From Neophaeotheca triangularis (Eukaryota): a stretch of 43,969 bases of DNA. Below the pieces are notes generated by a model that saw only the letters and a list, made by a program, of their open reading frames with translations, did not search any database and was not told where the DNA came from. The number at the start of each line of letters is the position of its first letter. Within the stretch, counting starts at the first letter, position 1. This document shows, one piece after another, positions 17,421-39,929 of this stretch. A program made the translations under genes and the position numbers. The stretch lies in the NCBI GenBank assembly GCA_054600435.1, contig BAAIJX010000047.1, positions 124,001-167,969 of the forward strand, written 5' to 3'.

Positions 17421-19283
17421 GTTTGAAGCTCAGAGCTGGTCACAGAGATGTCCGATCCAGGTCGAACTCCCGTCTGGGTTCGACGAGTATTTGTATTCCT
17501 GGCAGCACAAGGCTATGGAGAATTTTAGCGATAAGACAGTGGTCACAGCAGCGGAGGTGATGGTGGCAGCGAAGAGGCCGCCTTCGCAAAGGCAAGAGAG
17601 GAAATACGAGGGCACTATCTTGCCCACAGCCTCAGTAGTCTTGTATCAGAGTCGAAGAGGAAAGAGTATCAGTGATAAAAGGTAGCCGGGAATCGACTCA
17701 CCACCTACGTCTATTTACCTAGCACATCCCCTATATGTAGCACTCCTTCCGCAGAAAGTCGCCATACTAACGTTCGCAGAGCCTCAAAACTGGGAGACGC
17801 CAGACCCTGCATGAGGTGTCGAAACCGGTCAAATTTTGACCAACAGCCATCGCCCGGCTGCTTGTCAGCTGAGCGATGCATGATCGATTTTAGTGCAGAT
17901 GTTGGGACTCAGGCAGTCATCCGAAGCCATTGGCCGGCGCGAGGGATCCGAGTCACCTACCTTGCCTATCGAGGGCGCGTTCGGTGGCTCCTTCGGTAAC
18001 ACGCCACTGGGACGCGCGGGCGTTCTTTTTCCAGCTGAGTGTTGGTTTCCATCTGCCTTCCACGTGCGGAAGCTGTGACTTGCCCGTCTCCTGCAGGTCG
18101 TGCGTGCTGCACTGTCTGAATGTCAATGTCGCTCGGACACTCCGCGCGAGAATAGTTTCCGAACCCTCGTCCGCGGTTGTGAGGGGGGGGCCTTTGGGGA
18201 GGTGGAAGCGGATACTTGCAGGAACCACGTGGTGCTGCGAGGCGCTGGAGCGGGCACAGGCGCATGAGAGTCGATCCGCCATGGCGGATGCACCATCCAC
18301 CCACGGACTTGATCTCTCCGCCCTCGCCTCGCAAGGATCTAATACTCCACGCCCTGGATGCGTACCGAGGGCGGCGGCAAGCGGCCTCAGCCGCAAGGCG
18401 CAAGACACCCATGCCTGAGCCCAAAGCCCTTGAATCATGCCAAAAATCGACCTAACAGTCATGAGCTGTTCCGGGCGTAGACATCTAGGTGACATCCAGC
18501 CGGTTGTTGAAGATAAGGCAAAAAGTTGCCTTCAGCAATGCCCGAGGGCTGGAGATGCAAGCGAAAGCGGGTGGCTGCTTTGCTCAGTCCAGTTTAGGTA
18601 TGGACGAGCGAGCTGTACCATTGCAGCCCCGAAAATGCATAGATAAGACGCGGGTGGTCAGACTTGAACAATCGTTGTGTTAATATTGTATGCGGACGGG
18701 AGGTGTTGGAGCATGTTGAACCAAGCAGAGAAGGATGGTTGGAGAATTAAAGCTGCTCGTCAAGGTTTCCCTCCATTGATGTAGCGCTATGAAGCCGCCA
18801 AGCCTCCGCCCAATACCAGTGGGTACCCCTTTCATAGATACCTACCTAGGTAGTTACTAAGGTAGTCAGGCATCCCTAGGTACCGTGAACTTCGATTAAA
18901 GTCCCTAGCTTGACAGTGCCATTTTCAATCAGGCGTGCTAAACAGCAGCTCTATCAAGTGAGAGTTCTGATTGACGTTTTCGTAGATATAGTACATCAAT
19001 AGCTACGGTGCACGATACACTCAAGCGTCGATACGCGGTGTGTATGGATGCCTCGACTTATTCAATCTCCGGGCTGCTTTGGCCTGGGTATCCTTCCACG
19101 TAGCATCTCAGCCCCCGACTGGGGGTAATACCGCTCATGTCCTCAAGCGAGCGAGGCTGATACCTCCTTGGAATCGCATCAGCCGTCGTGTGCGACTCTG
19201 CCTCACGCGCAAAACTTTGCCTTCGCCGACATGAAGAGCCCACATCACCTTGCGACTACAGATCACAGCGGGTGTGTATCTCC

Positions 19284-21518
19284 TCAAACCCCCTCCCCAC
19301 CCTCCTCCTTCTTAACCCCCTCCCCCTCAAAAACTCCCGGCCTCAGCTTCCTCAAATGCTTCCCAGCAACCTCCCTAGCATCCTCATTCCCCCTCCACAT
19401 CGCCTCGAGCACATCCAGCGCCGCCTCCTTGACAGGCGGCCTAAACATCGCCAAATACACTAGCGCAGTGACAGCAATAGGAACTCTCTCCGGATCATCG
19501 GCGATTTTGTGAGCGCGGTCCAGCAAGCTCTGATCCAAAAAGGGCAACTCCGCGAGAAAGCGGGTGAGGTATTTGCCGTCCTTGACGTCGAAGTAGGGGA
19601 TCATAAAGTCCAGCAGGCGGGTCGCGTAGTGGTAGTAATCGGCCAGGAGGTGAGGTAGCGGGAGCGGCGGGATGGAGACCGCTGTGCGTTGTTTTTGCGC
19701 GAGGCGCGCGACGTACCATTCTTCGTTCAGCCAGTTGAGCGCGACGTCGAGCCGTCGGCGGAAGTCTTCCGTCACGTAGTTGTAGAGGGATTCGCGGATG
19801 GCGTTTGCGAGGTTGAAACTGCCGTCGGGCCGGATGACGACGCCGGTTTCGGGCGAAACGGAGGCTTTGATGTCGTTGTTGTCTTCTTGTGGCCCAGGCT
19901 CGGTGAGGGCGAAGGTGGAACGTGTTGCGATGCGGGTTAGGAGTGTGAGCCAGCTGTCGCGGTCGCGGGTTATGGTCGGGAGGGAGGCGAAACCTTGCGT
20001 GTCAGCTTCGTTGCCTGTGGTGATCTTTTTGGGTTTTGTCCGGGCTTCTTGGTCCAGGTCTTTGAGGGCATTGAAGATGCGGATTACCGCCGTTTGGCTA
20101 TATTCTGACTTCTCATAGTCGTCGAGGGCGTGGGATGGACCGAGTTGGAATGGCGCGATGATATCGTCTGGTTCCAAGTCGGGGCGAATGGCTTCGATTG
20201 CATCTTGTGTAGGGTCGTAATCCTCGTCGTCTTCTTGGCTCGCTGGAGCGGCTTCTGGGGCTTGTTTGCTCAAATTCAAGAAACGTGCCCTCACCGCGTT
20301 GACAGCATCGTCGAACTGCATCTGGTTTACTGCCGCCAGTAGTGGGGGAATGAGCTGCGCGACAATCTGTTGAGGTAGCCGCTCAACGTGAAAGTTTGTT
20401 GCGACTTGGTCTTGGGTCAATGTAAAGAGCTGTGCGAGCGAGACGGGTCCGGGTGGTAAAGGCGGGTACTGCGCTGGTTGTTGCTGAGGTGTGGTGCCCT
20501 TGGCGGCCTCTTCATCCACTCGTTGCCGCTTTGCATCGTCTAGACCGTCAATCGGCTCATCAGGCGCTGGTCGCTTAAGGTTATTCTGTCTCTCAGAGAA
20601 CGCCCGTACGAGACCGTGCTTCAAGCCCTCCACGTGCTGCTGTATCCGTCCCGCCAGGTTGTGCTGCTGATTACGCTTGAGCACGTTGAGAAGAAAAGTA
20701 ATGGTCGTTCTCGTCATACTCCTGATTGCAACCTTGACTGTTCCACTCAGACCGGAGCCCTCGGCCGGCTTCAGGGGGTTGAACGTGAAGACTGTCGACA
20801 GAATCTTGTTCGAAATGCTAGCACGCTTTTGTACCAGCACACCAAGAGCATTGAGCGTTGCTGTGATAATCAATGGATCCACCACGTTCTCCTGTAACAC
20901 ATACAACAGCCTGTCGAGCAGCCCTGACGCCTCTGCTTCAAGATTTGCAGGGGGGATCGTAGGATGATCTCGAGGAACGAGGGCAAGGCTGACTTCGTTT
21001 TGATCCGGCCTTCGTGGATCCGCAATCAGTCCAGGCGTCTGCACAAGCACGACTCCGGCCACAAACTTGATGCAGCATATCCTTACCCCCGCAGTGGCCG
21101 TATCTATGCGCTTCAATATCGAGCTCTTGATCCCCGCCATCTTGCTCCATGTCTCTTTGTCGGCAGCATTGGCAATGGTGTGCTTGAAAACGAGCGGATA
21201 GATGCTAGTGGAACACTGCACGGCACTCTTTACCACAGTTGCGTCTTCTTCCTCTCCTAGTTGCTCCTTCCGGTTCAAGTAACTTTGCAAGATATCCAGC
21301 ACACGGAAAGCCATCTTCTGCTTCTCCTCCGCACTCACAACCGGGCTCGCGAACATTTCGGCAAAGAAGTGGGCACCCCATCTTCGCAAGTCAAGATGCG
21401 CGCCCGAGCCTACTACAGCTAGCACAGCGGGCAGAACTTGGGGGTATATGGCTGGGTCGCGGAGCACAATGTCTCTGGCTTGGCTCAAGTGTGTGATGGA
21501 TGTCGCGTGGTCTCCCAT
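19284..21518 (-). CDS. PTA1: mRNA cleavage and polyadenylation factor subunit Pta1 (symplekin N-terminal domain)
   Basis: 744 aa intronless ORF with GVRICCIKF..VVLVQTPG, SLALVPRDHP, LEAEASGLLDRLL, DFRRRLDVALNWLNEEWY, LTRFLAELP and YLAMFRPPVKE. Confidence 0.93.
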   Translation of the reverse strand: MGDHATSITHLSQARDIVLRDPAIYPQVLPAVLAVVGSGAHLDLRRWGAHFFAEMFASPVVSAEEKQKMAFRVLDILQSYLNRKEQLGEEEDATVVKSAVQCSTSIYPLVFKHTIANAADKETWSKMAGIKSSILKRIDTATAGVRICCIKFVAGVVLVQTPGLIADPRRPDQNEVSLALVPRDHPTIPPANLEAEASGLLDRLLYVLQENVVDPLIITATLNALGVLVQKRASISNKILSTVFTFNPLKPAEGSGLSGTVKVAIRSMTRTTITFLLNVLKRNQQHNLAGRIQQHVEGLKHGLVRAFSERQNNLKRPAPDEPIDGLDDAKRQRVDEEAAKGTTPQQQPAQYPPLPPGPVSLAQLFTLTQDQVATNFHVERLPQQIVAQLIPPLLAAVNQMQFDDAVNAVRARFLNLSKQAPEAAPASQEDDEDYDPTQDAIEAIRPDLEPDDIIAPFQLGPSHALDDYEKSEYSQTAVIRIFNALKDLDQEARTKPKKITTGNEADTQGFASLPTITRDRDSWLTLLTRIATRSTFALTEPGPQEDNNDIKASVSPETGVVIRPDGSFNLANAIRESLYNYVTEDFRRRLDVALNWLNEEWYVARLAQKQRTAVSIPPLPLPHLLADYYHYATRLLDFMIPYFDVKDGKYLTRFLAELPFLDQSLLDRAHKIADDPERVPIAVTALVYLAMFRPPVKEAALDVLEAMWRGNEDAREVAGKHLRKLRPGVFEGEGVKKEEGGEGV

Positions 21519-21976
21519 ATTGGCGAATTCACCAGGAATGAGGCGACACGGACGGCAGCAAAGGAAAGATCAGAGAGAAGCTATCTAACGGGATTGCGCG
21601 TGCTTAATCTTCGCTTCTCGTAGCCTCCATTCATAGCCAGGTGAGTCAGGGTCGACGGGACGGATTAGTGAGAGGACAGAGAATGGTCCCTGGAGGCTGA
21701 TGTTGTTGGAAGGAGAGCGAGTACCCCGAGTGAGCGGAGAGGTGTTTGTAGTACGGAGGCAGTTGGTCGAAGTCAATAATTGAAGTTGTTTCCGTCGGAG
21801 CTGTACACTGGCAAGTCCAATGCGCGCGTCAGTCGGTCTTCGAACGTCGGTTCTTGGCGCGCAACCATCACTCGCGAGTGACGCTAACCACTTTGGGCGT
21901 CTATCAAGACATCCGACATGGCGCTTGAGACGATGCCATACATCACATCCTGACAGGTAGTTCACCAGCCGCCAAA

Positions 21977-22356
21977 ATGCCAATCGGAAGGTAGTGCTCA
22001 TTCCCATACTTGAGTCTCGAACAGTACCACTGACAAATGACAGAATACCCCAATCCTCCTACTACGACAAGAACAACCGCCCCTCTGCCGCCCTCTACCG
22101 AGCACGACAACCATACCTCGTCAAGAATGCCGTCACAGGTCTCTGTATTATAGGCTTTGTCGCGGGAGTCTGTACGTTGGAGAACGTGGCGTACCGAGGC
22201 CAGGGACAGGATACTAAAAGTAGCGCAGACACATGGACCCTCAAGGCCGTCGGCCAAGACGACTTCTCAGATATTCCTATGCCCGACGTCCCGGCGCAAC
22301 CGGCTCAAGCACCGCATGCCAGTGGTAATGTCAAGAGCGCAGGGAGTACGCAGTAA
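21977..22356 (+). CDS. COA3: Cytochrome c oxidase assembly factor 3 (Coa3/CCDC56-like)
   Basis: Exons 21977..21990, 22044..22171, 22229..22356 give MPIGRIPQSSYYDKNNRPSAALYRARQPYLVKNAVTGLCIIGFVAGVYTWTLKAVGQDDFSDIPMP..., with one TM segment and the QDDFSD motif. Divergent from PTA1 (about 460 bp). Confidence 0.85.
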
Positions 22357-22795
22357 GGATGGGGTCTGGGAGAGATGCAATTCATCAACGGCATTGGGAG
22401 GCGTTTGGGGACATTTGGGCGTTATGGGGATCATGGGGCTACACTCTCACCTCGGTGGAGTAGTCGGCGGGGCAATCATCGTGGTATGCACGCCCTTTGT
22501 ATACTGTGTATCATGCGAAAAGAGCGGCACAAATGGCATGTGGCGAGTGATGTCTTCAGATGTCTTGGTCACGTTTACCATGCAGAGCTTGATCGATTGG
22601 CCACCCTCGAACGACCAAAGCGAAAAGCAGCGGCAGTCGGGAATGAAGACCCGAGAAAGCAAAACGAAATGCCGGCTCCAACAGACAGCAAAAGAGCAAA
22701 AGAAACTTCCTGTTATGGTGGACAGGAGAAGAAACCATTTAACTTCATAGGCACCTTGTGGCTGGTTTGCTTTTTATTCAAACCGCTCCCAGCCC

Positions 22796-22916
22796 TGTCG
22801 GGTGGGGATTCGAACTAGCGACTTTCTTAAACTGAAGGCTCGCTACTAGTGGCCCTTGATCGATCCGCGGGGAAACTAATCCCAGTCAGAGACCTTGCCA
22901 TTAACCTAGGCAGCTA
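22796..22916 (-). pseudogene. Degenerate tRNA-like element (tRNA pseudogene or tRNA-derived SINE head) with Pol III A and B boxes
   Basis: Minus strand reads TAGGTTAATGGCAAGGTCTCTGACT (A-box/D-arm-like, from 22908) and AGTTCGAATCCCC (B box, 22816..22804), about 80 nt apart. The stems pair poorly, so it is not a functional cloverleaf. Confidence 0.5.
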
Positions 22917-23198
22917 TGTGTTCCGGGTCTTCCCCCCGAATCTACATGATCACATTTTCTTGCTGGCTTACTGAATAAGCAGGACGTGGAGCCTTATATC
23001 AGGTCAGTAAAGAATATTCAGGGGTCAGAGAAGCTGCGCACAGGCTGTGAGTACAGTAGGTAGGTAGTGAATCTCTAGGCACAGACTCTTCATCTTCTCT
23101 TCACTTCACATTCGATGACTCGATTATGATAGACAGATCTTCTTCACTTGCGTCTCAATTACTAAGTGTACTTAGCCCTAGTGGCAGTACCTGAGAGC

Positions 23199-23206
23199 TA
23201 TAAAAG
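23199..23206 (+). promoter_or_regulatory. TATA box (TATAAAAG) of the multi-intron transcript leading to CDS 24723
   Basis: ctataaaagcg followed ~25 nt later by a pyrimidine-rich tract and the first donor site at 23272. Confidence 0.6.
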
Positions 23207-23452
23207 CGAGGCAGTGAGCCTCCACCATCTCTCTCTCCTACTACAACATCCCGGAACGCCATTTTAACGAGGTCAGTGCGCACTCCCTCTGTCAGCTCCA
23301 AGTCCTGTCTGCTTTGTTTATAAGATGGTGCAGCTAGTCACTGACCTTTACAGCAAAAGGCTGGCAACACTCAAGCTCTTCAGCAACAACAGCAACAACA
23401 ACAACAACAGTAAATCTTGGCGACCTAGGCATTTTGGCCTCCTTCACAACCA

Positions 23453-23700
23453 TAACATCTGACACATCTCTTGAAGGTCCGGCTTGCAAAGCAACCAGCT
23501 GTCAGCAACCAAAGGCCCTTCTCAGGTAGGTCATCTCTCCCCCCTCGCCAACAACAACAGCCCAGTTTGCAATGTTCACGGACCCCTAAAACTTCACCTC
23601 CCAACACCAGCCTCCCAACTTCAACATCTGACACCCGTTCATAAGATCTCACTGGCGAAGCAACCAACTGCCAACATCAAAAGGCAATACTCACGTAAGC
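23453..23700 (+). repeat. Tandemly duplicated branch site + 49-nt exon unit
   Basis: AACATCTGACAC precedes both exon 23477-23525 and exon 23646-23694. Both are 49 nt and share AAGCAACCA.CTG.CA.CA.C.AAAGGC...T.CTCA. Confidence 0.75.
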
Positions 23701-23986
23701 GATCTTCTTTCCCATGCACCCTCCACAGCCTAGTCCACAGCAAGCACGGACTCCGAAACCTCACCTTCGAATTCCTCACCTGCAAATCCTTAACCCCAAT
23801 CTCCCACCCCTCAGCTCCCACCTCCCAACCTCCGCCTTTCAATTCTCACATTCCAACTTCCTCTGACCGACGAAGCATCAAACAGCCACGCTTGTCTTAC
23901 TTGAGCGACAGTACGCCCTACCCACCTCCAAGCCATCAACAGCAGCTTCCTCCACAACTTTCAGCGCCAACCAAATCAAACTTCAA

Positions 23987-24225
23987 CCTAACACATATCA
24001 TCCAGCTCCACTTCATCATCACACCAATACCGAAACCAATACCAAACCTCCAATACCACATCTCCGAGCGAGCCAGGGGTAAGACCAACTTCCTTCACTC
24101 GAAACAATACTCTGCCTAACACCACTTATCCAGCTCTGCTTCATCATAATACCAACAACCAATACCAAATCTCCACTACCAAATCTCCAATACCAAATTT
24201 ACGAGCGAGCCCAAGGGTAAGACCG
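23987..24225 (+). repeat. Tandemly duplicated branch site + exon + donor unit
   Basis: CCTAACAC..ATCCAG|CTC..CTTCATCAT..CCAATACCAAA..CTCCAATACCA..GAGCGAGCC..GG|GTAAGACC occurs twice (exons 24006-24078 and 24134-24216). Confidence 0.8.
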
Positions 24226-24722
24226 GCCTTCATTCAGCGCGGCTTCAACAGCCACGTCCGGGACATTCAGGTGTCATCAACATCTCCAAGATCAAACCTG
24301 CTAAACACCCTTTTCTAGCTCAGCCATAACAATACCATCCAACAAGAACAAAAAGAATATTCAAATTTCCCACCAGGAATCATAGTGAGCGGCATCCCTC
24401 CTGCACAACGTTGTCTGTAGCATTAATGTTGCCTGCATCATTCACGTTGTCTGCAGCGTTCACGTGCCACTCAAGTCCTTCCGTTCCACTCTACTAAAAT
24501 CAATACTCCAGTCCCTCTATACCATCCACCGAAGAACTTGGACAGCAAAATGTTAGTCTCAGTGAAGACGACCGCTATGAGCGGCAATAGACATCCCTTT
24601 TACACTTTACAAAGATGTTTGCAACATTCACGTGCTATACATAAAACATTCTAAGCCCAAGTCCCCCCGTACTAACACCACCTCTAGCTCTCCAACACTA
24701 CCCAAACCTCACCATATCAAAA

Positions 24723-25636
24723 ATGGCACCCAAAGCCGCCACGAATACCGCCTCGGGCTCCGCTCCCGTTTCCGGTTCCTGCTCCGGCTCCGGTGAAAGC
24801 CAAATCTTCTCCTTCGAGGCCGTCGCCGCCCTCGTTGCCACTATCATGCACGCCACCGGGACTTTCGGCAAAGCCGAATTCCACCTCATGAGCAAGCTAG
24901 ATGGGGCCCGCGGGGTTTCAGGCTTCGATCACTTGTTCCGCAAGGTCAAGGTGAGGGCGAAGCAGATGTTGAAGAAGATGGAGGATGATGGTGGGGAAGA
25001 TGTTGTTACGCCGGCGAAGAGGGCGAGGGGTAGTGGTAGTTCTTCTGGGGGAAAGAAGGGGAAGGGGAAGGGGAAGGACGTGAAGACTGTTGATGGGATC
25101 CGGGAGGTGGATGGAGAAGATGACGAGGAGGTTGAAGTTGTGGTTGTGGAGAAGGGGACGAAGGGGAAGGGGAGGAAGAAGGTGCAAGTTGAAGTGGTTG
25201 ATGAGGAAGATGGGGATGAGGTGGTTGAGGTGGTTGAGAAGGGGAAGAAGGTTAACGGGGTGAAGAAGGGGAAGCGGACAAACAAAGGGGAGGAAGAGGA
25301 GGTCGAGGAGCAGGCACATGGGGAGAGAGTTGGGGCTGGAATCATTGGGGGCGGGATGGGGGACGTTGGGAAGGAGCGCGGCAGCGGCAAGAGAGGTAAG
25401 TTTTCATTCACACGCGATCGACACTGTTAATGTCGATATTGACCATCAGAGAAGCCCGCAGCCCCTCTCTTATCGCCGAGGACAGCGTTCTCCTCCAGAG
25501 GGCGCTAGAGGGCGGTGACGGCGGCGAAGAGGCCATCGTCCCAGCCGCGAAAAGATTGAGAACGGAAGAGCCGGAGTCGGTGCAGTCATATGGGGCGTGG
25601 GAAGACGGATTCATCGATTTCGGCTTCCTCGCCTAA
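24723..25636 (+). CDS. Small hypothetical protein with a short helical N-terminal domain and Lys/Glu/Gly-rich low-complexity tail (putatively nuclear)
   Basis: AAAATGG start context. FSFEAVAALVATIMH...FHLMSKLDGARGVSGFDHLFRKVKVRAKQM is followed by TPAKRAR and K/E-rich tracts. Intron 25396..25454 (GTAAGT..TTGAC..AAG) joins to an exon ending ...PAAKRLRTEE...FIDFGFLA*. An alternative CAG acceptor at 25449 would stop at 25508. Confidence 0.72.
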
Positions 25637-25861
25637 ACCATTTACTGCGCCGGCTCCGGGCTCCAGCAATAGCAGTGCTCTGCTGTTGAAGCGTCTGAGC
25701 GTCGAGAAGTGAGAAGTTTGGGGAGATTTGAAATGGAGGAGCAGGGGCCGGTGCAGTATTATGGGGCGGGCGAGGACAGTTTCATCGATCACGGCTTCCT
25801 CGCCTAAACCATCTACTGCGCTGGCTCCTGGCTCCAGCAATAGCGATCCCCTGTGGTTGAA
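25568..25861 (+). repeat. 171-bp-period tandem duplication of the terminal codons, stop and proximal 3' UTR
   Basis: Copy 1 is 25568-25690 and copy 2 is 25739-25861. Shared sequence: CGGTGCAGT..TATGGGGCG..TTCATCGAT..CGGCTTCCTCGCCTAAACCAT.TACTGCGC.GGCTCC.GGCTCCAGCAATAGC. Confidence 0.92.
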
Positions 25862-26099
25862 AGCAATGATATACCCAAATAGCGACTGAAAAACGGGAAT
25901 GTAAAACAACGTATCACTAAGTGCCATGAATGTCTCCTTGGTGAAGTTTTTTAGACACCCGACGTGAAGTGAAGTGAAGTCGGCATTGGCTTGGTCCTAA
26001 CACGGAAGCTTTGCCGAGCGACAACCTCCAACTCCGTCGGCTCCCACTTCACAACCAGCAACGACCGTGCCGAAACAGCCATTGGCGCCCACAGACACC

Positions 26100-26932
26100 A
26101 TGCAACCCATCCAGAGAACAGCAGCGCAAGCTGCACGACGCCTACGACCCCAGCTGCAGCGTCAGCAACGCCGCGCCGCCAGCGACACCGGCCACGGCGC
26201 CTCCAGCGACCCCTCCAAAGGCACCCACGGCCAACCACACCATGCCTCCTCTGGCACGGAATCGCTAGGCGTACGTCCCATGACGACCACCCCATAAACC
26301 CGCTCAAGCAAGTACGCCCTCTAAACTAACACGCCGCCCGTCCAGAAACCCTTCTACATCTCCATCTCAGCCTTAGCCTTCGGTTTCGCGCTGTACAAGC
26401 TCTCGCGCCAGGGCACCGACGAGCAACCTTGGTTGACTCGCCGCTTCATCGAGGGCTACAACAGTTACAAGGATGTCTGGGCCAGGCGGAACGACGTGCA
26501 CACGCAGATGGTGCAGCAGGCCGCTGGCGATAGGTTGCTGTTCTTGAATGAGACCGGCGCGGGCCAGAACAGGCATGTTGATGTGAGGTTTCCGGAGTAT
26601 GTATAACCCGTTGTGCAATTGGGAGGGGCTTGGGGGTATATGAAGGGGGTTGGGATTGAATGGGCGAGGGGGACGATGTGCGGTGGTTGAATGGGGGAAG
26701 AGTGCAGATTGCTAATATGGATGTTATCTACAGGATCATGAACCAGAGCTCTCCCTGGAACGTGCCGGCTGGCAACGGCAGCGCGAACATGGACGCCGTG
26801 ATTGCGAAGTACAGGGACGAGGCATTTGCGCAAAACGAGGAGAAGCTGAAGCAGGTGCAGGAGAACAGGGTGCCGAGGGAGCAGCCTGTTAGGTCTTTGA
26901 AAAAGCTGACGCCGGCGGGATTGGACTCGTAG
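26100..26932 (+). CDS. NADH-ubiquinone oxidoreductase 17.8 kDa subunit, mitochondrial precursor
   Basis: Exons 26100..26270, 26346..26596, 26734..26932. Arg-rich presequence, TM segment after ESLG, and WARRNDVHTQMVQQAAGDRLLF...RFPEIMNQSSPWNVPAG. Confidence 0.88.
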
Positions 26933-28106
26933 AGGGAGGGGAGTGGGTAGAGTGTGTATATTCCAGATTGGCATCGTACGGGTAATATGCGATTGACTCG
27001 TTACACTGTTATATTGGCATGGTTTGGAACTACAGATGGTTTGGCTGACTTTGAGTAGCTCAACTGATTCGAATTGCGTAAGTATGAGCGTTCCCGCTCG
27101 CTATCGATGCACTCAATGATGGTGGACTCAGGTCCTCCAAGGCATGCCGCGCTTTCGAGCTTGGCAGAGCTATTACATTCCCGCTAGCGACTATACCAGT
27201 CTCCGCCCATTGTAAATCAAGTATTACTGACAGGGGTGAAGCGTGGCTCTAATCCTTACAGCATAGGATATGGCTAGAAGTTAAAGCGTTACTCTTCACG
27301 CTGACCCCCAGATCTACTCAAAAGGATTTCGCGCTGGAGGTGTCCTCCTGTTAAGCCTCTCATGCAATCAGGTGTACCAAAACCCTGGACAATCTACGTG
27401 TATCACGATGGAGGTAGTTGGTATTGAGTCTTATGGTGCAACTACCTGGATACCGGAATTCGAGGTTTTCCGTTTTGGGCAATGGTGGAAAAGGGCCGCT
27501 CCACGCGCTAACGATCAAAGGTGAACTTTAATCAAGTATGGCTCTCTTCCTTCTCCCGATAATGACACTCTTTCGCATGCAATATATAAAACAATTTCTA
27601 ATGAAAGCCAATGGGGGCTTGAGCGAGCTAATGCTTTAGTATCCTACAGAAATGTCGATTGTCTTGGAGGCCGATGTCGACGTCACTATGGATGCGCCCC
27701 GATGTCAGAACTCCCGTGTTTCTGCTAGACAATCCTCTATCCGTGGCTCTGGGACATCAAATTCTTTCTAGGACGTCGTCACCGATCCTCGGAACTCGCG
27801 AGGTCGCCATGGCAGATGGCATTTCACCAGCCTTCTCCGTGAGAGTAAAGAATGCAAGTGTCGCCGTCTAAGATGCAGTTTTTACTTGCTCTCCAAATCT
27901 ACATTCCTATGCCCGGTCTTTGACGACCCGCATCCATTAGAGCCACAACGACACGTTTGCACGAGTCGGTTTCTAAGGGTGAAACACCGACAAGCGCCGA
28001 CAGCAGCGGGAACCTATTCTAGAGAAGAACACCTGGTCCTACCAGCAGTCGCAGCGGGCGTCGGCCTCGATTCAACGACAAAGCCGAGCTGACCTTCTCG
28101 GGCGCC

Positions 28107-29090
28107 ATGCAGGGCAGGAAGCTCCCAGGCATGCACTTCTGCAATACGCTGGCAGTTGGAGTCTTCCTTTTCTCCGCCACCTGCCAAAGCCTTGCCATAT
28201 TTCCTCCAGCAGCTTATCCTAACACGACCGACGCTGTGACTGGCAATAAGAACACATCTTCGAGCAGCTACGATGCAACCGTTTTAGCCGACTGCCCCGT
28301 CGCCCTGTGGGGCATGCGTGCCATCAACTCAAGCGAAGATGATCTCACCGGCAACGGCCACACCGGCACGTACAAACCGACCATTCCTCGTATCGCCATT
28401 CTTCCAAACGGCGAGAACGCAGCCGACTTGGACGGCTCGAGCCAATATCTCACCGTGCCATCAAATGAGGCCTTCAGCATCCCCACTACCGGCAACCTCA
28501 CCTGGGAAGCGTGGATCAAACCAAGCGTCGCAGACTTCCCACGCGCGTCCGGTCAAGGTTACGTCTCATGGCTCGGCAAATGCGCCACCTTCTCACCCAC
28601 TTGCGAATGGGAAGGACGTCTGTACAACACAAACACAGCCTCGGACCGTCCAAACCGCTTCTCATCCTACGCCTTCAACACGAGCGCCGGTCCAGGCTCG
28701 GGCGCATACTGGCAACCCAACCCAGGCACTGTGCGAGTCGGCCACTGGTATCACGTCGTAGGCCAATTCACCACGCAACCCAAACCCCCGGCAGACAGCA
28801 GCGACAGCGCGCGCGCACCAGGCGAGATCGATATCTGGGTCAACGGTATCAAGTGGCAGCAGGCAAGACACGGCCAGACGGGTTTGATGAGCCAGTATAA
28901 CATCGTGCCCCAGGCGGCTGACAGCCCGCTGAACATCGGCACCAAGGCGTTGGATAACTTCTTCGCGGGCGCCATTGGCAAGGTGGCGATTTACGACCAT
29001 TTGCTCACGGATGCCCGGGTGAAGGCGCATTATACTGCCATGACGGGCAAGACGCCGACTGGCTGGTGTACGAGCACTTGTAGCTTGTAA
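28107..29090 (+). CDS. Secreted LamG / concanavalin A-like lectin-fold protein
   Basis: Intronless 327 aa ORF (start may be the ATG at 28131). Signal-like LAVGVFLFSATCQSLA and LamG motifs LDGSSQYLTVP, LTWEAWIKP, GHWYHVVG, IWVNG, PLNIG, FFAGAIGKVAIYDHLLT. Confidence 0.85.
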   Translation: MQGRKLPGMHFCNTLAVGVFLFSATCQSLAIFPPAAYPNTTDAVTGNKNTSSSSYDATVLADCPVALWGMRAINSSEDDLTGNGHTGTYKPTIPRIAILPNGENAADLDGSSQYLTVPSNEAFSIPTTGNLTWEAWIKPSVADFPRASGQGYVSWLGKCATFSPTCEWEGRLYNTNTASDRPNRFSSYAFNTSAGPGSGAYWQPNPGTVRVGHWYHVVGQFTTQPKPPADSSDSARAPGEIDIWVNGIKWQQARHGQTGLMSQYNIVPQAADSPLNIGTKALDNFFAGAIGKVAIYDHLLTDARVKAHYTAMTGKTPTGWCTSTCSL

Positions 29091-30775
29091 TTTGAGGGGG
29101 CCGAGGAATCGGCATCGCATGCCTGGAGGTTGTAGAGGTATTGCGGTCTTGGATAGGCATTAGCATGGCGTACATATCATTAATAGAAGATACATTTCCT
29201 GAATGCGTTTTCGCCCGGCCCGGATCGAGACCTGTTGCGTTGCAGCAGCAAAGTTTCCAGCGCTTCGTTCTCGGCCGCGAGTCTAGGAGCTCAAGGTCGC
29301 TATTCTTTCGTACCATTCGCCTCACTTGCGACGGATACGCCCCAAGAGTTTGGCGGATACGTTAACAAAAGTGTGCGGTGCTCTCGAGTGCTGAAGGCGA
29401 CCGCTTGCGCAACCGGACAGATACCAAACGATGATACGCGATCTATTCCTTTTCGGGTCAGTGACGCGGGATGGGCATTGGCGTATACAAGGTATGTAGG
29501 CGCTAGCCGTTAACGATACATGATGAGCTCTAGCCAAGAACACCTCCCTCCGTCGAAACATTCTGCTATAGTTCGCAAGTCAAGACCGTTCTAGCGTCAG
29601 GTCTAACGCGTTGTTCCAATGGCTGGGATTATAATCGGTCAGGTTGGGCCGTGGGATTGCCCTGATAACGGCAGCAAGGGGGTTTGCTTGGTGGGAAATG
29701 GGAAACGTCGCTGGAAGCGGTTGCTATTGAGCAGTGTAGACGATACTACCAAGCGTCGTTGGAGAGACATGGAAGCGCAATTCCGAGGATGCTGTTGAGG
29801 AGTCGGTCGTAGCATGTGTGCGTTGCCGCTTGGGGTTGTGGTCTGCGGCGCCTGCGTGACGTTGGAATGTCAGAAGCCAGCTTGGATGACCTTGATTGAG
29901 AGCCGGACGACAATGGTTGTATGGAAGACTAGATGACAAGTTTTTGTCGGTTTGATCTCGCCGTCAAAGACAATCATGAGACGAGGGTGTAGTGGAGGCG
30001 ATGACGGGCGATGTCCAACCCGCTTGAAGAGGCTCACGTGAGTAGAGTCAAAGCCACATGTGAAAGGATCGTTTTGGTGGTACAGTCCCCCCGAATGAGC
30101 GCGCTACAGCCTGAGGTGCAGACGTGGGCAAGGGCAGGGTACCTAGGTAGAGTGAGGTAGGTAAGGTACCTAGGGTAAATTGGTAAATGTTCTCGACCTT
30201 GCCCTAAGACCCTTCCCCCACGGGGCACCGCATCCGCATTCTCGGCCCGGCAACCCCGACTTTAGCCGGCAGCTCGCCCAATAATTTCCACCACTTACCA
30301 GACGACAAGTCCTCTACAGCCGTCGTCGACCTCGATCTGACAATCTCTCTCCCTCCACCTCACCCGACGCGGCTAGCCATTCGCGCCCGCCTTTTGCAAA
30401 AGCGCCACCAGCGGCAAAACCTTCTACCACAGCCTACAGGTACCAGCCATGGCGGACCCTGGCGTGATCGGATCCTTCCGAGCTGTCAGGACGATGTAGA
30501 GAGCGCGTCGAGAGCGTGCAGGTCAATCAATCAAGTCCGCACTACTCCGCAGCAATATAAAAGGTATACTGTATGTTAGTGCCGAGGCTGGGGATCCTGA
30601 CCGTTTATAGCAGCAACCAGGACTTCGGTAAGGGTGGCACGTGGGAGGTTGTCGGAAGGGGCGTGGGTGGTCAAGCTGGGTATAATAGGTCGTCTTGTCC
30701 CTGTCCCGGGGCCCGAAAAGGGAATCCTCTACAAGAGTAGCTTGCCATTGCCTTACCACGACCATTTCTGCCATC

Positions 30776-32868
30776 ATGTCGGAATCCAGGAATGCCGGTG
30801 ATATTGAGAAGATTGCTCTCGACCAGGTCGAGGAGAAGCTGGGGAAGTCGGCGCTCGATGAAGCTAAACAGGCTTCAGACCAGGAGCACAATGCGACTGT
30901 TCGCGAATCCCTCAAGAAACATAAATGGTGAGTTTGGTGAAAAGCATTCGTGGGATGAGCAAAGACAGGTTTGGAGCGCAAGTGTGGCAATGCGATCCGC
31001 TTGCTAACGACAAAGCACACAGGGCGGTCTTCTGGTCCTGTATGATCTCCATGACAATCGTCATGGTAAGCATTAGCCCTTGCCGTCTCGTCCATGGATG
31101 CCTGCTGATATTTAGATGGAATAGGAGGGCTACGATACCATCCTAATGGGAAACTTTTGGGCTTACTCAAGCTGTAAGACTTTCTCTCCAAAGCCCTGGC
31201 CTCGTACAAGCCACTGACATTGTTTTTCTATAGTCAACGAGAAGTACGGCACTTACCGTGGCGAAGAAAACGGATACGTCGTCGATGCATCCTGGCAGTC
31301 CGGACTAAATATGGGTGCGACCGTAGGGGCCATCTTTGGAGCGCAACTTAACGGCTGGGCCTCCGCAAAGTACGGTTACAGATGGGTTTGCATCATCGGC
31401 CTGGGCTTCCTCAATTGCTTCATCTTCCTCACCTTCTTCGCGCCAAGCAAAGCCGTTCTCCTCGTCGGACAAATTACCTGTGGTAGGTATCAAAAGTTTC
31501 CTCTCTCGGATTCAAAGTGGCAAGCTGACCATTTCCAGGTCTGACATGGGGTATCTTCGCCACAACATGTCCCGCGTACGCATCTGAGATCATGCCGCTC
31601 AACCTTCGAGGCTACTTGACCATGTATGTCAACCTATGCTGGGCAATGGGTCAGTTCATTGCGGCCGGCGTTCTCAGAGGTCTGGTCAACAACCCTACTC
31701 AATGGGGTTACCGCATTCCCTTCGCCCTGCAGTGGATCTGGCCCCTGCCGCTTATGATTCTCATCTACCTGGCGCCTGAATCACCCTGGTTTTACGTCCG
31801 CAACGACCGATTGGATGACGCAAAGAAGTCGCTGAAGCGCCTAAGCAAGATTACCGACGACGAGGCCAATGGTACTCTTGCCATGTTGCTCCACACTGTC
31901 AAGATCGAGAATGCAACGACGAGCGGGACCAGTTATTTTGACTGTTTCAAGGGTACCGACAGGAGGCGGACTGAAATCGCCTGCCTTGCTTTTGCCGGAC
32001 AGATTCTCGCCGGTAGCTCGTTCGCTGTAAGTCCAACTACCAGACACGCCACGTTAACCAGACTAACTTCAGTCGACAGTACTCTCCCGCCTACTTCTTC
32101 ACCTCCGCTGGCATCCCCGAAGAAGACTCCTTCTCCATGTACGCACCTCTCAACTCCCCCATCCCCCCTTTGCCAAAACTAACTCCCTCCCCCCCAGCGG
32201 CCTCGGCGGTACCGCGATGGCCTTCTGCGGCACAATCCTCGCCTGGTTCATCAGCTACAAAGTCGGGCGGCGCACAATCTACATCATCGGTGAATCCATG
32301 TCGTGCTTCCTACTGCTCATAATCGGCAGCATCGCAGCGGCTGCCAACGAAGGCCCCGGCCTTTGGGCCCAAGCCGCTATGGCCCTAATCTGGATCTTCA
32401 CCTACTCCATCACGGTCGGGCCCTTTGCCTACAGCGTCGTCTCCGAAATCAGCGCCGTCAGGCTTCGCGCGCAGACGGTCGTGTTGGCGAGAAACGCCTA
32501 TCAGCTCGTCAACATCGTGAGCCAGATTCTAGTCCCGCACATGCTGAATCCCGAAGAATGGGACTGGCAAGGCCGGGCGGGTGTAAGTATCCTTCCCCAC
32601 CACCCAGATTCCTCCCCAACAACAACAAACCCTTTGCCCTTTCGCCTGAGCTTTGCGCTAACGAGACTTCTCACCCCGACAGTTCTTCTGGGCCGGCACG
32701 TCCGCTTGCATGGCCGTCTGGGCTTACTTCCGCCTCCCGGAACCCAAAGGCCGGACTTACGAGGAGCTGGATATTCTCTTCGCCAAGGGCATTAGTGCGC
32801 GCAAGTTCCACAAGACAAGGGTCGATGCGTATGCTGAAGACGGGTCGACGACGGCGCCGATGACTTGA
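30776..32868 (+). CDS. MFS sugar porter, maltose/general alpha-glucoside permease
   Basis: Eight exons (introns 30928-31022, 31066-31124, 31174-31233, 31483-31538, 32027-32079, 32139-32197, 32583-32682). Motifs MEGYD, YASEIMPLNLRGYLTMYVNLCWAMGQ, APESPW, CFKGTDRRRTEI, VGRR and PEPKGRTYEELDILF. Confidence 0.93.
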
Positions 32869-37124: not shown

Positions 37125-39929
37125 GGTGATGGTTGCGCTCTACGTTGCGTTTAGTGCGTGTGGTGGTGCGTTGTCGATGTCTGAAAGTCGCCGGGGCTGG
37201 GAGAAGAGGAAAGGAGAAGGTCAGTCACAGGAAAAGTCCACGGGAGCAAAATACGACGCGGCGCCAAGCCCCCTTGTGACGGCATCTCCCAGATTGGCAG
37301 GAACGAGAACACTCACGCAACAAGAAGGCGCGGCGGCCGCCACCTCTCCTCCCGTCGTCCTCCTCCTCCTCCAAACACGTAGAAGGTATGATAACTGCAG
37401 CCCTGAAGATTTCGAATACGTTAGCTATGAAGTTGAAGTTGATTATATACCATGAGCCATTGCATATGAATATCAGGGGAGCTGCGGCTGATCGATGCGA
37501 ATCTCACTCTCTCCTGTCTTTCACGTGTCTTGGAGCGGCAAGGCCGCACAGCAAGCATCAGATGCGCCTTTTCGGTCTTTGGTGATGGGGGCCAACAATG
37601 CAGTCCCCTCTTCATCTAGGTCAACACTTGCTGCCTGTAATGCCAAAGCACAGTGCTACGAGCAGGCTGCGCTGAGGATCAAGGAGGAACACAAGATTTG
37701 CGCCCTAGAATACTCCTGAATCTGATTGACTCAAAGTCCGACAACTAGGCCGGTATGGAGCCAGTCTTACTGATGTTGTGATGTGTTAGTACTCTGCCAT
37801 CCCTCTCCGTTGCGCACTAAGGAGTATGCAGATGCTTACCGCTATGCTAGCAATGAAGTACTAGTCCGGTGAAGGAAGCAGTAGGAAGTGAATGTAAAGT
37901 GAAAGAGGTGATCTAGAAGGAAGGAGTAAGGTGTATCTTGGAAGTGAGGAGAGGGATCCAAGTGAGCTTCTCCCCTGCAGCAGGCGTTTGCAATGCGCCA
38001 CATCCAATGCACCTATCCGTGTGCAAGGCGCCACGGACGCCACAGGTCCCAGCTCTTGGCATCCTCACTTATTCAAAATGTCCTTTTGAGTCGCCAACTA
38101 AATCACCAAGTACACCGCAAAAAGTGAACAAAAAAGTGAACAAAAAATTGCAGACCATTTATAGAAACAAAAGCATGCCACCTACCCAAACAATCCAAAA
38201 AAAAAATTGAGACCCGCATCTATCGAATACGTGGTATTTGACCATTGCACGGTTTTGCCTCCGAAACTCTGCCTAATCGGGATGCGAGATACACTGGGCC
38301 AAGTCTGAAGTCAAGCACCATTTGACTAGAAACCCTCGCATCCGGATTAGGTTGGTTTGCTCTCCTAACTGCGCTACATTGATGGGCTGTTCGCTGGTTG
38401 GTATGGGATAATTCTTGCGACAGTCGAATATATTCTCTAGAACATCATGAGCGCCCATGAGGTGGTCCGAGCGTCATCGTGTTGCATTGCAGGGAGCTGG
38501 TGGCGAGAGGGTGCTGCGAAGGTGTACTGAGGTTCCCGTAGGCTTCATGGACATCACCTACCGTGCCATAACCACAACGCAATATAGCTTTTTCACATAT
38601 TTCTGATTTGAATAATGTCCTCGCGATCGTGGATCCTCATCATGCTCGTGTCATGACGCAGACTTCACCGCCATCCAACCGAAGGGGCACGCACCGGCTA
38701 TCCAGGAGCCGCGCGAAAGTCCTCACTCAGTCCACAAGTGAAGAAAGACGTCGAGTCGTCTGCGATTGGTAGCGGATCTGGGTCCGATGTGCCAGTACTA
38801 TTGCAGCCATTACTGGAGAGGAGACAGCCGTGGCCCTGTCATCCGGAGGCTCTCGCATTACCAACGACACCGGACTTCCGGGGAGTTTGAAACCTTGACC
38901 AAGCTTTTTCGTGTCCTTTGCATGCCTTCAAGGACCAAGAGTATCCCACGCACAAACTATGGGCCAAATGCGCGTCTTCCCGGAACGTGTCGGGCCTTCT
39001 CCGACGACAACCCAAAAGACTGCCTCCGAAATTGGCCACCCGGCCCTACCAGTCCTACGTGATCAGAGAAGATATCCTCATCAGCACCGCAAGGCGTACC
39101 AAGTCGTAACCATGACGCATCTCTCGAAAAAGCCTTATGTCGCAGAGGTTGAGCTTTTGTTTTCCACCTCCCTTCGGACCTTGGTCTTTGAGCTTAGCTG
39201 TCGTCTCAAACGTATCCTGCTCTTGTGCATGGCAAGATACTCGTCTAGCGTCCAAGGCGTGGGAATCTCCTATCGTAGTGTCTTCCGCTCGAGGCGCAAG
39301 CAGCTCGCAGACAAGACGATGCAGCCGCGGTGACTTTCGCGCTCTATGCCCCGCGACGCCTTCGATGTATGGCAGTGTGGTACACACAGATACCGGGGAT
39401 GAATATCCCAAGTCAGACGAGGTACACAATAGAAGGTAATGGGTTGGTTGCGATCAGCCTCGAGAGTTGTCGTTCACTTGTCGTCGGCAACGGAGCTCAA
39501 TCGTCTCCACCACGATATCGAACTAGGCCGGAAAAGGTACAGTAGGCTGGATGGAACTACAACCTACTCTCACCTTTTCCTGGAGGTACGGCCATCGAAA
39601 CAATTCACACAAACACATAGAGATTTTCCTGTGCACCGAGAAACGCCCAAAATAAGGAGGCTCGTTGCATCTCGGCGGGTCGTCATTGCATCACCGGACA
39701 TGTGACATTGACGATACAAGACTACTTCTGCAAAACCGAGATCGTGTCCAAACACCGCGCCGCCCATCGGCACCTGTGGAAATCCAAACCTCCTACATAA
39801 TTCGAACCGTACAGACAAGCGTGTGAGATGATCATTTCCGAATCGACTCTCGACAATCTCGCTCCTATCCATCGCTGTTTGATAAGTCATTCCCCCACCC
39901 GCAAAACTTCTCACGAGCAGCCCGCCCAT

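What the first reader, a model, noticed from the sequence alone, without database searches (positions are those of the whole stretch)
23199..24722. Nine-intron, AUG-free 5' leader in front of a small orphan-like gene
Seen: after a TATA box, nine successive donor/branch/acceptor sets tile 1.5 kb with 25-83 nt CA-rich exons. The spliced ~520-nt leader has no ATG before the CDS at 24723, while several introns do contain ATGs. The last exons (24006 onward) are also stop-free in frame with the CDS. Fungal 5' UTRs usually have few or no introns. Inference: a splicing-gated expression switch in which only fully spliced RNA is translated, possibly stage-specific. Alternatives are a host transcript for intronic small RNAs or a non-AUG N-terminal extension. 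This is the best candidate for an undescribed system in the window.
Basis: partly seen in the sequence, partly recalled or inferred. Interest (0 to 1): 0.8.

Follow-up and report, generated by a model that had tools for sequence, protein, structure and literature searches.

The report
Possible nine-intron fungal gene leader
Upstream of a small fungal gene lies 1.5 kb that looks like nine short introns built partly by local duplication, probably an unusually long spliced untranslated leader, but no RNA data could be found to show that it is transcribed or spliced.

Summary
Between a TATAAAAG box (23199) and the start codon at 24723 there are nine sense-strand donor/branch/acceptor sets. Removing them leaves a 528-nt CA-rich leader without ATG. 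A fixed regex finds 7 such sets against 2.1 in shuffles (0 of 1000 reach 7). After deleting one copy of each duplicated unit it finds 5 against 1.7 (14 of 2000).

Two pairs of exon-plus-splice-site cassettes are tandem duplicates, so the nine sets are not independent. In these pairs the splice signals are identical at 26 of 28 positions, against 65% elsewhere.

The ATG argument is weaker than stated, and the open upstream frame follows from composition. The gene is not an orphan: about 100 clusters of small Dothideomycete proteins share its N-terminal helical domain and its start methionine. That argues against an N-terminal extension. No snoRNA-like feature was found.

No RNA evidence was obtainable, and a proximal promoter remains a serious rival. 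Best reading (about 0.45): a real multi-intron non-coding leader grown by cassette duplication. A regulated splicing switch is untested.

The parts
23199..23206 (+). TATAAAAG box, candidate distal core promoter
   Evidence: Read. It is one of only two TATAAAAG on the + strand of the window.
23219..23245 (+). CT-rich tract 20-45 nt behind the TATA box, candidate start region. A transcript start at 23230 is assumed, not shown.
   Evidence: The sense-strand C>G skew sets in here and runs to about 24950.
23230..23271 (+). predicted leader exon 1 (5' end assumed)
23272..23353 (+). predicted intron 1 (82 nt): GTCAGT .. ACTGAC .. CAG. It holds ATG 23325.
   Evidence: The donor is off-consensus at +3.
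23354..23409 (+). predicted exon 2 (56 nt, CAA/CAG repeats)
23410..23476 (+). predicted intron 2 (67 nt): GTAAAT .. TCTGAC .. AAG. No ATG.
   Evidence: The donor is off-consensus at +5.
23477..23525 (+). predicted exon 3 (49 nt), core of cassette A2
23526..23645 (+). predicted intron 3 (120 nt): GTAGGT .. TCTGAC .. AAG. It holds ATG 23572.
23646..23694 (+). predicted exon 4 (49 nt), core of cassette A3, a duplicate of exon 3
   Evidence: 23454-23536 against 23623-23705, 70% over 83 nt, offset 169.
23695..23875 (+). predicted intron 4 (181 nt): GTAAGC .. TCTGAC .. AAG. It holds ATG 23714.
   Evidence: An alternative acceptor near 23814 is possible, by my reading.
23876..23910 (+). predicted exon 5 (35 nt). 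It carries the only in-frame stop upstream of the CDS.
23911..24005 (+). predicted intron 5 (95 nt): GTACGC .. CCTAAC .. CAG. No ATG.
   Evidence: GTACGC is also seen in a probable CDS intron at 32139.
24006..24078 (+). predicted exon 6 (73 nt, three CCAAT), core of cassette B1
24079..24133 (+). predicted intron 6 (55 nt): GTAAGA .. CCTAAC .. CAG. It is formed by the 3' flank of cassette B1 plus the 5' flank of B2.
24134..24216 (+). predicted exon 7 (83 nt), core of cassette B2, a duplicate of exon 6 with a 14-nt repeat insertion
   Evidence: 23987-24086 against 24115-24224, 76% over 110 nt.
24217..24318 (+). predicted intron 7 (102 nt): GTAAGA .. GCTAAAC .. TAG. No ATG.
   Evidence: The branch site is a variant.
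24319..24384 (+). predicted exon 8 (66 nt)
   Evidence: It resembles the B cassette weakly.
24385..24511 (+). predicted intron 8 (127 nt): GTGAGC .. ACTAAAA .. CAG. It holds ATG 24426, an 18-nt tandem repeat (24407-24465) and CACGTG at 24461.
   Evidence: It folds at z -3.3.
24512..24551 (+). predicted exon 9 (40 nt)
24552..24687 (+). predicted intron 9 (136 nt): GTTAGT .. ACTAAC .. TAG. Its donor splits ATG 24550. It holds ATGs 24577 and 24615, CACGTG at 24629 and the TATA-like TATACATAAAA at 24636, which are the rival proximal promoter elements.
24688..24722 (+). predicted exon 10 (35 nt), the last leader exon, ending in AAAA before the ATG
24723..25395 (+). CDS exon 1: conserved helical N-terminal domain (residues about 24-118) and a K/E/G-rich tail
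25396..25454 (+). CDS intron (GTAAGT .. TTGACC .. AAG). An acceptor at 25451 also keeps the frame.
   Evidence: The 284-aa database protein fits the acceptor at 25454.
25455..25636 (+). CDS exon 2 with stop codon

Best explanation
The 1.5 kb between the TATAAAAG box at 23199 and the start codon at 24723 is most likely a transcribed, non-coding, multi-intron 5' leader. The gene it precedes encodes a small protein of a family found across Dothideomycetes, with an N-terminal helical domain and a disordered basic/acidic tail.

The leader appears to have grown by local tandem duplication of cassettes. Each cassette holds a branch site, an acceptor, a short exon and a donor, so every duplication added a ready-made exon and intron. 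Full splicing would leave about 0.53 kb of CA-rich, G-poor, weakly structured RNA without AUG, which scanning ribosomes can cross to the conserved AUG. Transcripts that keep introns 1, 3, 4, 8 or 9 would carry upstream AUGs and should be translated poorly.

Shown here: the signals, their excess over chance, the duplications, the better conservation of signal positions, the conserved start codon and the lack of coding signal. Inferred: transcription from the distal promoter, actual splicing, continuity with the CDS, and any effect on translation. I take the array to be mainly a constitutive, perhaps nearly neutral, product of cassette duplication rather than a regulated switch.
For: - Seven regex-defined intron sets against 2.15 +/- 1.18 in shuffles (0 of 1000 reach 7). 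After removing duplicates, 5 against 1.71 (14 of 2000). The minus strand of the same region has 3.
- This is the highest density among 850 sliding windows. It is above the 6 scored over stretches where ORF joining finds probable CDS introns.
- Donor-like hexamers number 18 against 7.6 expected (0 of 500 shuffles reach 18).
- Donor types and the CTAACAC branch context match probable CDS introns of the same window.
- In the two clear duplicated cassette pairs, splice-signal positions are identical at 14 of 14 and 12 of 14, against 67% and 63% elsewhere. Combined, 26 of 28 against 196 of 302, one-sided Fisher P 0.0011. The two differences keep a valid donor. Exon bodies are no better conserved than the flanks (about 69%, my count on the alignment), as expected for non-coding exons.
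- A TATAAAAG box with a CT tract sits at the 5' end, and the strong C>G skew begins there. No other long ORF sampled in the window (13 others) has such a long skewed upstream tract.
- The spliced leader has 0 ATG against 3.3 expected (P 0.0115), while the introns have 6 against 6.9.
- None of seven poly(A)-like hexamer patterns occurs in the leader.
- There is no single dominant coding frame. Paralogous exons of 49/49 and 73/83 nt would be read in different frames.
- The start methionine is conserved in the family.
Against: - No RNA evidence at all.
- Three donors are off-consensus at +3 or +5 (GTCAGT, GTAAAT, GTTAGT), three acceptors are AAG and two branch sites are variants.
- The nine sets are not independent, because they include two duplicated pairs.
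- The signal-conservation test is biased. Signals were called only where both copies have them.
- In 6 of 8 internal exons the donor is simply the first GT after the acceptor in a G-poor sequence.
- ATG paucity is partly a property of the whole tract. A 711-nt block is ATG-free even unspliced, and low folding energy is shared by exons and introns.
- A proximal promoter is plausible: TATACATAAAA at 24636, two CACGTG, and a repeated 18-22-nt motif inside 'introns' 8 and 9. There are also five CCAAT inside 'exons' 6 and 7.
- 5'-UTR introns are rare in a related, well-annotated Dothideomycete. Cercospora beticola has 446 such introns in all and a mean 5' UTR of 188 bp (PMC7368123, passage read). 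The prior for nine in one gene is therefore very low.
- The predicted introns (median 102 nt) are longer than probable CDS introns here (median about 59 nt).
Confidence: 0.45

Rival explanations
1. The gene is transcribed from a proximal promoter near 24640-24700 with a short unspliced leader. The upstream CA-rich 1.4 kb is untranscribed promoter or low-complexity DNA. Its splice-like motifs arose by chance, were multiplied by tandem duplication, and were picked out by a reader looking for them.
For: - A TATA-like TATACATAAAA lies at 24636, 87 nt before the ATG. Two CACGTG lie at 24461 and 24629. A motif of 18-22 nt occurs four times at 24408-24465 and 24612-24633. Five CCAAT lie at 24024-24187.
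- Several signals are off-consensus.
- The duplications inflate the count.
- The prior for many 5'-UTR introns is low (PMC7368123).
- ATG paucity and weak folding are shared by 'exons' and 'introns'.
Against: - The excess of complete intron sets survives removal of duplicates (14 of 2000 shuffles). It is strand-specific (7 against 3).
- Signal positions are conserved above background in both duplicated pairs.
- This reading gives no role to the canonical TATAAAAG and CT tract at 23199, where the strand skew begins.
Confidence: 0.28
2. Only part of the array is real. Either the mRNA starts inside the tract (for example behind the CCAAT-rich units, about 24250-24380) and only the last two to four introns are 5'-UTR introns, or the distal promoter drives a separate spliced non-coding RNA that ends before the gene's own promoter.
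For: - The strongest signal sets (introns 3-7 and the branch/acceptor of intron 9) are unevenly spread along the tract.
- CCAAT and E-box-like motifs lie upstream of exons 8-10.
- One or two introns in a fungal 5' UTR is an ordinary number (PMC7368123).
- Neighbouring genes show single intron-like sets upstream of their ORFs.
Against: None of seven poly(A)-like hexamer patterns occurs between the distal TATA and the ATG. No second strong TATA box lies in between. Nothing in the sequence marks an internal start.
Confidence: 0.17
3. This is the first reader's reading, a special case of the best explanation. The intron array is a regulated, possibly stage-specific gate: only fully spliced RNA is translated, and intron retention with upstream AUGs switches the protein off.
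For: Retaining intron 1 creates a 227-codon ORF from an ATG in good context (AAGatgG) that overlaps the main start. Introns 3, 4, 8 and 9 would add ORFs of 5-50 codons.
Against: Four of nine introns (2, 5, 6, 7) hold no ATG, so they cannot gate in this way. There are no RNA data from any condition. The duplication history suggests growth by accident rather than design.
Confidence: 0.07
4. The tract is coding. It would be either a non-AUG N-terminal extension of the protein or exons of an unannotated gene.
For: About 100 in-frame codons before the ATG are stop-free, and a 214-codon frame is open even unspliced.
Against: - 33 of 37 aligned relatives start at the methionine aligned with 24723.
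- The other frames are equally open, which is a composition effect.
- Duplicated exons would be read in different frames.
- No frame dominates the codon-usage score.
- The 214-codon frame has no Pfam match.
Confidence: 0.02
5. The tract is a host transcript whose introns release small RNAs (snoRNA or microRNA-like), or its introns are introner-like elements.
For: The tract consists of many introns and short non-coding exons. 'Intron 8' folds unusually well (-30.5 kcal/mol, z -3.3). Introner-like elements are known in Dothideomycetes (PMC4457414, abstract and Introduction read).
Against: - No Rfam match lies in 22500-26200 apart from two weak plant-miRNA matches outside the leader.
- No TGATGA occurs anywhere in the leader.
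- 7 of the 8 introns folded are no more stable than shuffles. Intron 4 was not folded.
- The duplicated units include the exons, and no copy lies elsewhere in the 44-kb window.
Confidence: 0.01

Closest known systems
Spliceosomal introns in fungal 5' UTRs
   Same: Both have sense-strand GT .. CTRAC .. YAG units upstream of a conserved start codon, with the last acceptor 35 nt before the ATG. The introns are longer than the CDS introns of the same window.
   Different: Nine in one leader is far above the norm. The Cercospora beticola annotation reports 446 5'-UTR introns in all and a mean 5' UTR of 188 bp (PMC7368123, passage read). Splicing is not shown here.
Intron and exon gain by tandem duplication within a gene (tandem exon duplication)
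   Same: Two cassette pairs (exon 3/4, period 169; exon 6/7, period 128-137) each carry branch site, acceptor, exon and donor. Intron 6 is made of the flanks of two adjacent copies.
   Different: It lies in a non-coding leader, so there is no frame constraint, and it is repeated to give an array. In Zymoseptoria tritici, tandem duplication within a gene is said to account for under 1% of single intron gains (PMC4457414, Introduction read).
Introner-like elements (ILEs) of Dothideomycetes
   Same: The fungal class is the same. The introns are longer than regular ones and sit at a locus with several apparently gained introns.
   Different: ILEs are near-identical introns spread over unrelated genes (PMC4457414). 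Here the repeated unit includes the exon, the copies are adjacent and 70-76% alike, and no copy lies elsewhere in the window. The genome could not be searched.
Long 5' leaders with upstream ORFs or alternative distal promoters in fungal regulators (for example yeast LUTI transcripts; recalled, not looked up)
   Same: A distal and a proximal candidate promoter lie in front of one CDS, and upstream AUGs are present in incompletely processed forms.
   Different: The fully spliced long leader here would be AUG-free and so translatable. No isoform data exist.
Non-coding snoRNA host genes (recalled)
   Same: Both have many short non-coding exons separated by introns.
   Different: No snoRNA-like match or box C motif was found in any intron, and the array ends in a protein-coding gene.

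Membership tests
Spliceosomal 5'-UTR introns | GT donor with a fungal consensus (GTRNGY / GTAAGN) | tested here: met
   All 9 start with GT. Six fit the consensus, and three are off at +3 or +5 (GTCAGT, GTAAAT, GTTAGT).
Spliceosomal 5'-UTR introns | Branch site CTRAY a short distance upstream of a YAG acceptor | tested here: met
   7 of 9 are CTRAC and 2 are CTAAA variants. The branch A lies 9-14 nt from the acceptor. 6 acceptors are YAG and 3 are AAG. Probable CDS introns of the window show 9-16 nt (my count).
Spliceosomal 5'-UTR introns | Lies inside the transcribed region upstream of the start codon | not testable with these tools
   No RNA holder was listed. The laid contigs are of unknown kind and show no joints.
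Spliceosomal 5'-UTR introns | Exon-exon junctions observed in RNA | not testable with these tools
   The caps for run search and read laying were used. No joints were reported.
Tandem exon (cassette) duplication | Adjacent homologous units, each with acceptor, exon and donor | tested here: met
   23454-23536 against 23623-23705 (70%) and 23987-24086 against 24115-24224 (76%). The signals lie in register.
Introner-like elements | [quoted passage not shown] | tested here: inconclusive
   No copy lies elsewhere in the 44-kb window. No genome is held for this window.
Introner-like elements | Stable predicted secondary structure of the intron | tested here: not met
   Only 1 of the 8 introns folded is more stable than shuffles (intron 8, z -3.3). 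The other 7 have z from -1.3 to +2.1. Intron 4 was not folded.
snoRNA host gene | Intron-encoded box C/D or H/ACA snoRNA | tested here: not met
   No Rfam match in the leader at E <= 1. No TGATGA in 23199-24722.
Myb_DNA-bind_8 (PF22980) for the encoded protein | Match to the Pfam model | tested here: not met
   0 of 37 family members match at E <= 0.01, and P0001 has no match at E <= 1. The name is only an Atlas lead at score 0.87.
Myb_DNA-bind_8 (PF22980) for the encoded protein | Three-helix Myb/SANT-like fold | tested here: inconclusive
   The model has confident helices at 31-45, 50-60 and 65-88 (pLDDT 91-97). Foldseek finds nothing at E <= 0.001, though homeodomain and Myb entries are among the weak rows. 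The best VIA-align Z is 4.9.

The most novel reading that the evidence does not exclude
A fungal gene has acquired a record-size, nine-intron untranslated leader within a short evolutionary time. It did so by repeated tandem duplication of 'acceptor-exon-donor' cassettes. Selection keeps the splice signals so that the AUG-bearing stretches are removed, which makes protein output depend on complete splicing of the leader. This would be a directly observable case of intron gain by cassette duplication in a UTR. It would come from the fungal class already known for introner-like intron gain.
Probability: 0.12. Interest if true: 0.6.

Novelty: new member of a known kind. Interest (0 to 1): 0.35.

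Why it matters
If transcript data confirm it, this would be an extreme fungal 5' UTR with nine introns, where related annotated genomes average far below one. It would also be a clean example of introns and exons being created by local cassette duplication without any coding constraint. That is useful for the debate on how fungi gain introns, and for improving UTR annotation in Dothideomycetes. If the proximal promoter is the true one, the finding shows how duplication of a few chance motifs can mimic gene structure in low-complexity promoter DNA.

Tried and rejected
- **RNA evidence.** No RNA holder was listed for 23000-25700. Four runs were laid on 19000-30000, all as contigs, with no joints.
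  - X5 (kind guessed) has one 162-nt contig colinear with the genome across 23610-23771.
  - X6 (kind unknown, 95-99% alike) has colinear pieces at 23900-24066 and 24658-24808. It also runs unspliced through the CDS intron, so it is probably DNA.
  - X1 and X2 hold only 24793-25029.
  - None of this bears on splicing.
- **Whole genome.** None is held for this window.
- **Relatives' loci.** A metagenome scan with the protein found nothing. The scan with a seven-protein alignment gave one locus, L001, with a 20-residue match in a 1465-nt contig. On reading it I judged it a false positive. Leaders of homologues could therefore not be inspected.
- **Earlier findings of this scan.** There are none for this genome or sequence. 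A word search returned four notes on other fungi that do not bear on this case.
- **Exon 9 as a copy of exon 10.** The idea was that exon 9 with its split ATG is a duplicate of exon 10 with the start codon. Local alignment supports only a 20-nt motif (2 of 300 shuffles reach its score), so I dropped it.
- **Codon usage.** The scan discriminates weakly. Real CDS scores +8 to +13 per 40 codons, while the leader scores +2 to +8 in several frames at once. I used it only as lack of a dominant frame.
- **Folding energy of the spliced leader.** Only 3 of 120 random segments are less stable, but the concatenated introns are equally unstructured. It says nothing about exons as such.
- **Protein fold.** No convincing structural neighbour was found.
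- **Literature.** A search for counts of introns per fungal 5' UTR gave only the C. beticola passage. The Fusarium graminearum Iso-Seq preprint has no statement on UTR introns in the passages seen. The listing for the species name was not read further.
Full report
**What is there**

The window is fungal. The only full-length database match of the coding sequence at 24723 is a 284-aa NCBI protein, 100% identical, named 'hypothetical protein MBLNU230_g5757t1 [Neophaeotheca triangularis]'. The neighbours are ordinary Dothideomycete genes:
- A symplekin/PTA1 gene lies on the minus strand at 19284-21569.
- A small COA3-like gene lies on the plus strand at 21961-22356 (Pfam Coa3_cc, E 4e-10).

The gene under study has two coding exons, 24723-25395 and 25455-25636, separated by a 59-nt intron.

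**The observation**

- TATAAAAG lies at 23199, one of two on the plus strand of the window. A CT-rich tract follows it.
- Nine successive donor/branch/acceptor sets follow, in the sense orientation. The introns are 82, 67, 120, 181, 95, 55, 102, 127 and 136 nt. The internal exons are 35-83 nt.
- From an assumed start at 23230 the spliced leader is 528 nt, contains 37% A, 34% C and 12% G, and has no ATG.
- The seven ATGs of the unspliced tract lie in introns 1, 3, 4, 8 and 9, or, in one case, across the donor of intron 9.
- The frame of the CDS is stop-free for about 100 codons upstream.

**Is it more than chance?**

I used a regex fixed before looking at its results: a loose donor, then CTRAY, then the first HAG within 35 nt, with intron length 45-250 nt.
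- It finds 7 non-overlapping sets on the plus strand. Dinucleotide shuffles give 2.15 +/- 1.18, and 0 of 1000 reach 7.
- A stricter donor gives 3 against 0.41 (1 of 1000).
- The minus strand has 3 sets.
- Among 850 sliding 1.5-kb windows on both strands, this region has the only counts of 7. Counts of 6 occur over stretches where ORF joining finds probable CDS introns.
- Donor-like hexamers are enriched, 18 against 7.6.

The nine sets are not independent. Self-comparison shows two clear tandem duplications:
- The exon 3 and exon 4 cassettes, at period 169 and 70% identity.
- The exon 6 and exon 7 cassettes, at period 128-137 and 76% identity.

After deleting one copy of each, the counts are 5 against 1.71 (14 of 2000) and 2 against 0.35 (72 of 2000). 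The excess is therefore real but smaller than 'nine sets' suggests.

**The ATG and open-frame arguments are weaker**

The spliced leader has 0 ATG against 3.3 expected (P 0.0115), and the introns have 6 against 6.9. However, a contiguous 711-nt block (23715-24425) has no ATG even unspliced. The whole tract has 7 against 10.9 expected (P 0.098). Given the seven observed positions, the chance that none falls in the 35% of the tract called exon is about 0.05 (my arithmetic).

In 6 of 8 internal exons the donor is simply the first GT after the acceptor. Part of the pattern therefore follows from how the parse is made in G-poor DNA. The open upstream frame is compositional: another frame of the leader has no stop in 176 codons.

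**The gene is not an orphan and needs no extension**

An exhaustive HMMER search found 104 representative clusters at E <= 0.001 and 7 at E <= 1e-10. Almost all are small proteins of 80-200 aa that match residues about 24-118. Named members come from Ascochyta lentis, Peltaster fructicola and Hortaea werneckii.

In an alignment of 37 of the 104 hits, 33 begin at the methionine aligned with 24723. Two begin later and two carry predicted extensions. This supports 24723 as the true start.

The domain has no Pfam match. It folds as a confident small helical bundle followed by a disordered tail. It has no convincing structural neighbour. 'Myb-like' is only an Atlas lead at 0.87.

**Evidence that the signals matter**

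In the two duplicated cassette pairs, the positions I had defined as donor (6 nt), branch core (5 nt) and acceptor (3 nt) are identical at 14 of 14 and 12 of 14 positions. The remaining aligned columns are 67% and 63% identical. Combined, this is 26 of 28 against 196 of 302, one-sided Fisher P 0.0011. The two differences turn GTAGGT into GTAAGC, and both are usable donors. Exon bodies are no better conserved than the flanks.

This is the pattern expected for non-coding exons whose splice sites are under selection. The caveat is ascertainment: signals were called only where both copies show them.

The branch context CTAACAC occurs seven times in the window. Three are in the leader and one is in a probable CDS intron. 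Donor types such as GTACGC and GTGAGC also occur in probable CDS introns.

**Other context**

- The sense-strand C>G skew (down to -0.68) begins at about the TATA box and ends in the first 200 nt of the CDS. None of 13 other long ORFs sampled has a comparable upstream tract.
- None of seven poly(A)-like hexamer patterns lies in the tract.
- No coding frame dominates. The 214-codon frame that is open without splicing has no Pfam match.
- The locus as a whole is rich in local duplications. Besides the two leader pairs there is an 87-nt repeat in the CDS and a 171-nt-spaced duplicate of the 3' end.

**The main rival**

The last 320 nt before the ATG look like a promoter in their own right. They hold a TATA-like TATACATAAAA at 24636, two CACGTG, and a motif of 18-22 nt present four times. 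All of these lie inside 'introns' 8 and 9. Five CCAAT sit in 'exons' 6 and 7.

Three donors, three acceptors and two branch sites are off-consensus. In Cercospora beticola the mean 5' UTR is 188 bp, and only 446 introns (2.8% of all) lie in 5' UTRs (PMC7368123, passage read). The prior for nine in one gene is therefore very low.

**RNA and comparative evidence**

No RNA data could be brought to bear, and no relative's locus could be fetched.

**Small-RNA and introner readings**

- There is no Rfam match in the leader.
- There is no box C core anywhere in it.
- 7 of the 8 introns folded are no more stable than shuffles, and intron 4 was not folded.
- The repeated units include exons, and no copy lies elsewhere in the window.

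Introner-like elements, known from this fungal class (PMC4457414, abstract and Introduction read), are therefore not what is seen here. A genome-wide test was not possible.

**Verdict**

- **Most likely (about 0.45):** a genuine multi-intron, non-coding leader that grew by tandem duplication of acceptor-exon-donor cassettes.
- **Proximal promoter with no upstream splicing:** about 0.28.
- **Partial or separate upstream transcript:** about 0.17.
- **Regulated splicing gate:** possible in principle for five of the nine introns but untested.
- **Extension, orphan and small-RNA-host ideas:** not supported.

If real, this is an extreme member of a known kind, not a new kind of system.

Noticed in passing
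window 21961-22356 (+): A small COA3-like gene (Pfam Coa3_cc, E 4e-10), probably with one short intron, lies between PTA1 and the TATA box. In Peltaster fructicola the PTA1 homologue and the homologue of the 24723 gene carry locus tags two apart (AMS68_002439 and AMS68_002441). This suggests conserved gene order.
   Followed up: partly
window about 22790-22880 (-): A tRNA-like relic with a T-arm-like GTTCGAATCC stretch. It is not called by ARAGORN, with or without the intron option, or by Rfam.
   Followed up: partly
window 25553-25690 and 25724-25861 (+): The last 84 nt of the CDS plus the start of the 3' UTR are duplicated in tandem (81-82% identity). The two weak Rfam MIR408 matches on the minus strand fall on these copies and are far below the gathering score.
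   Followed up: no
window 25104-25182 and 25191-25269 (+): An 87-nt repeat inside the CDS encodes two acidic/basic blocks. It helps explain why this protein (284 aa) is longer than most relatives (about 100-170 aa).
   Followed up: no
window 24407-24465 and 24612-24633 (+): An 18-nt tandem repeat (3.3 copies) has a fourth diverged copy 168 nt downstream. Two copies end in CACGTG. The stretch gives 'intron 8' a fold with z -3.3. It could be a binding-site array or a structured RNA element.
   Followed up: partly
window about 37771-37839 (-) and about 25941-26008 (+): Single intron-like sets lie upstream of neighbouring genes. One is GTAAGC .. TACTAACAC .. CAG behind a CT-rich tract. The other is GTGAAG .. 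CCTAACAC .. AAG upstream of ATG 26100. They may be ordinary 5'-UTR introns.
   Followed up: no
window 23272-24687 (+): The distance from the branch A to the 3' splice site is exactly 14 nt in 6 of the 9 predicted introns, including two (7 and 8) that are not part of the clear duplicates.
   Followed up: no
proteins P0003, P0004, P0006 and others: Many database relatives end in unrelated residues just after a conserved K-R-G/S motif, at the position where this gene has its CDS intron. Their models probably read through an unrecognised intron.
   Followed up: no
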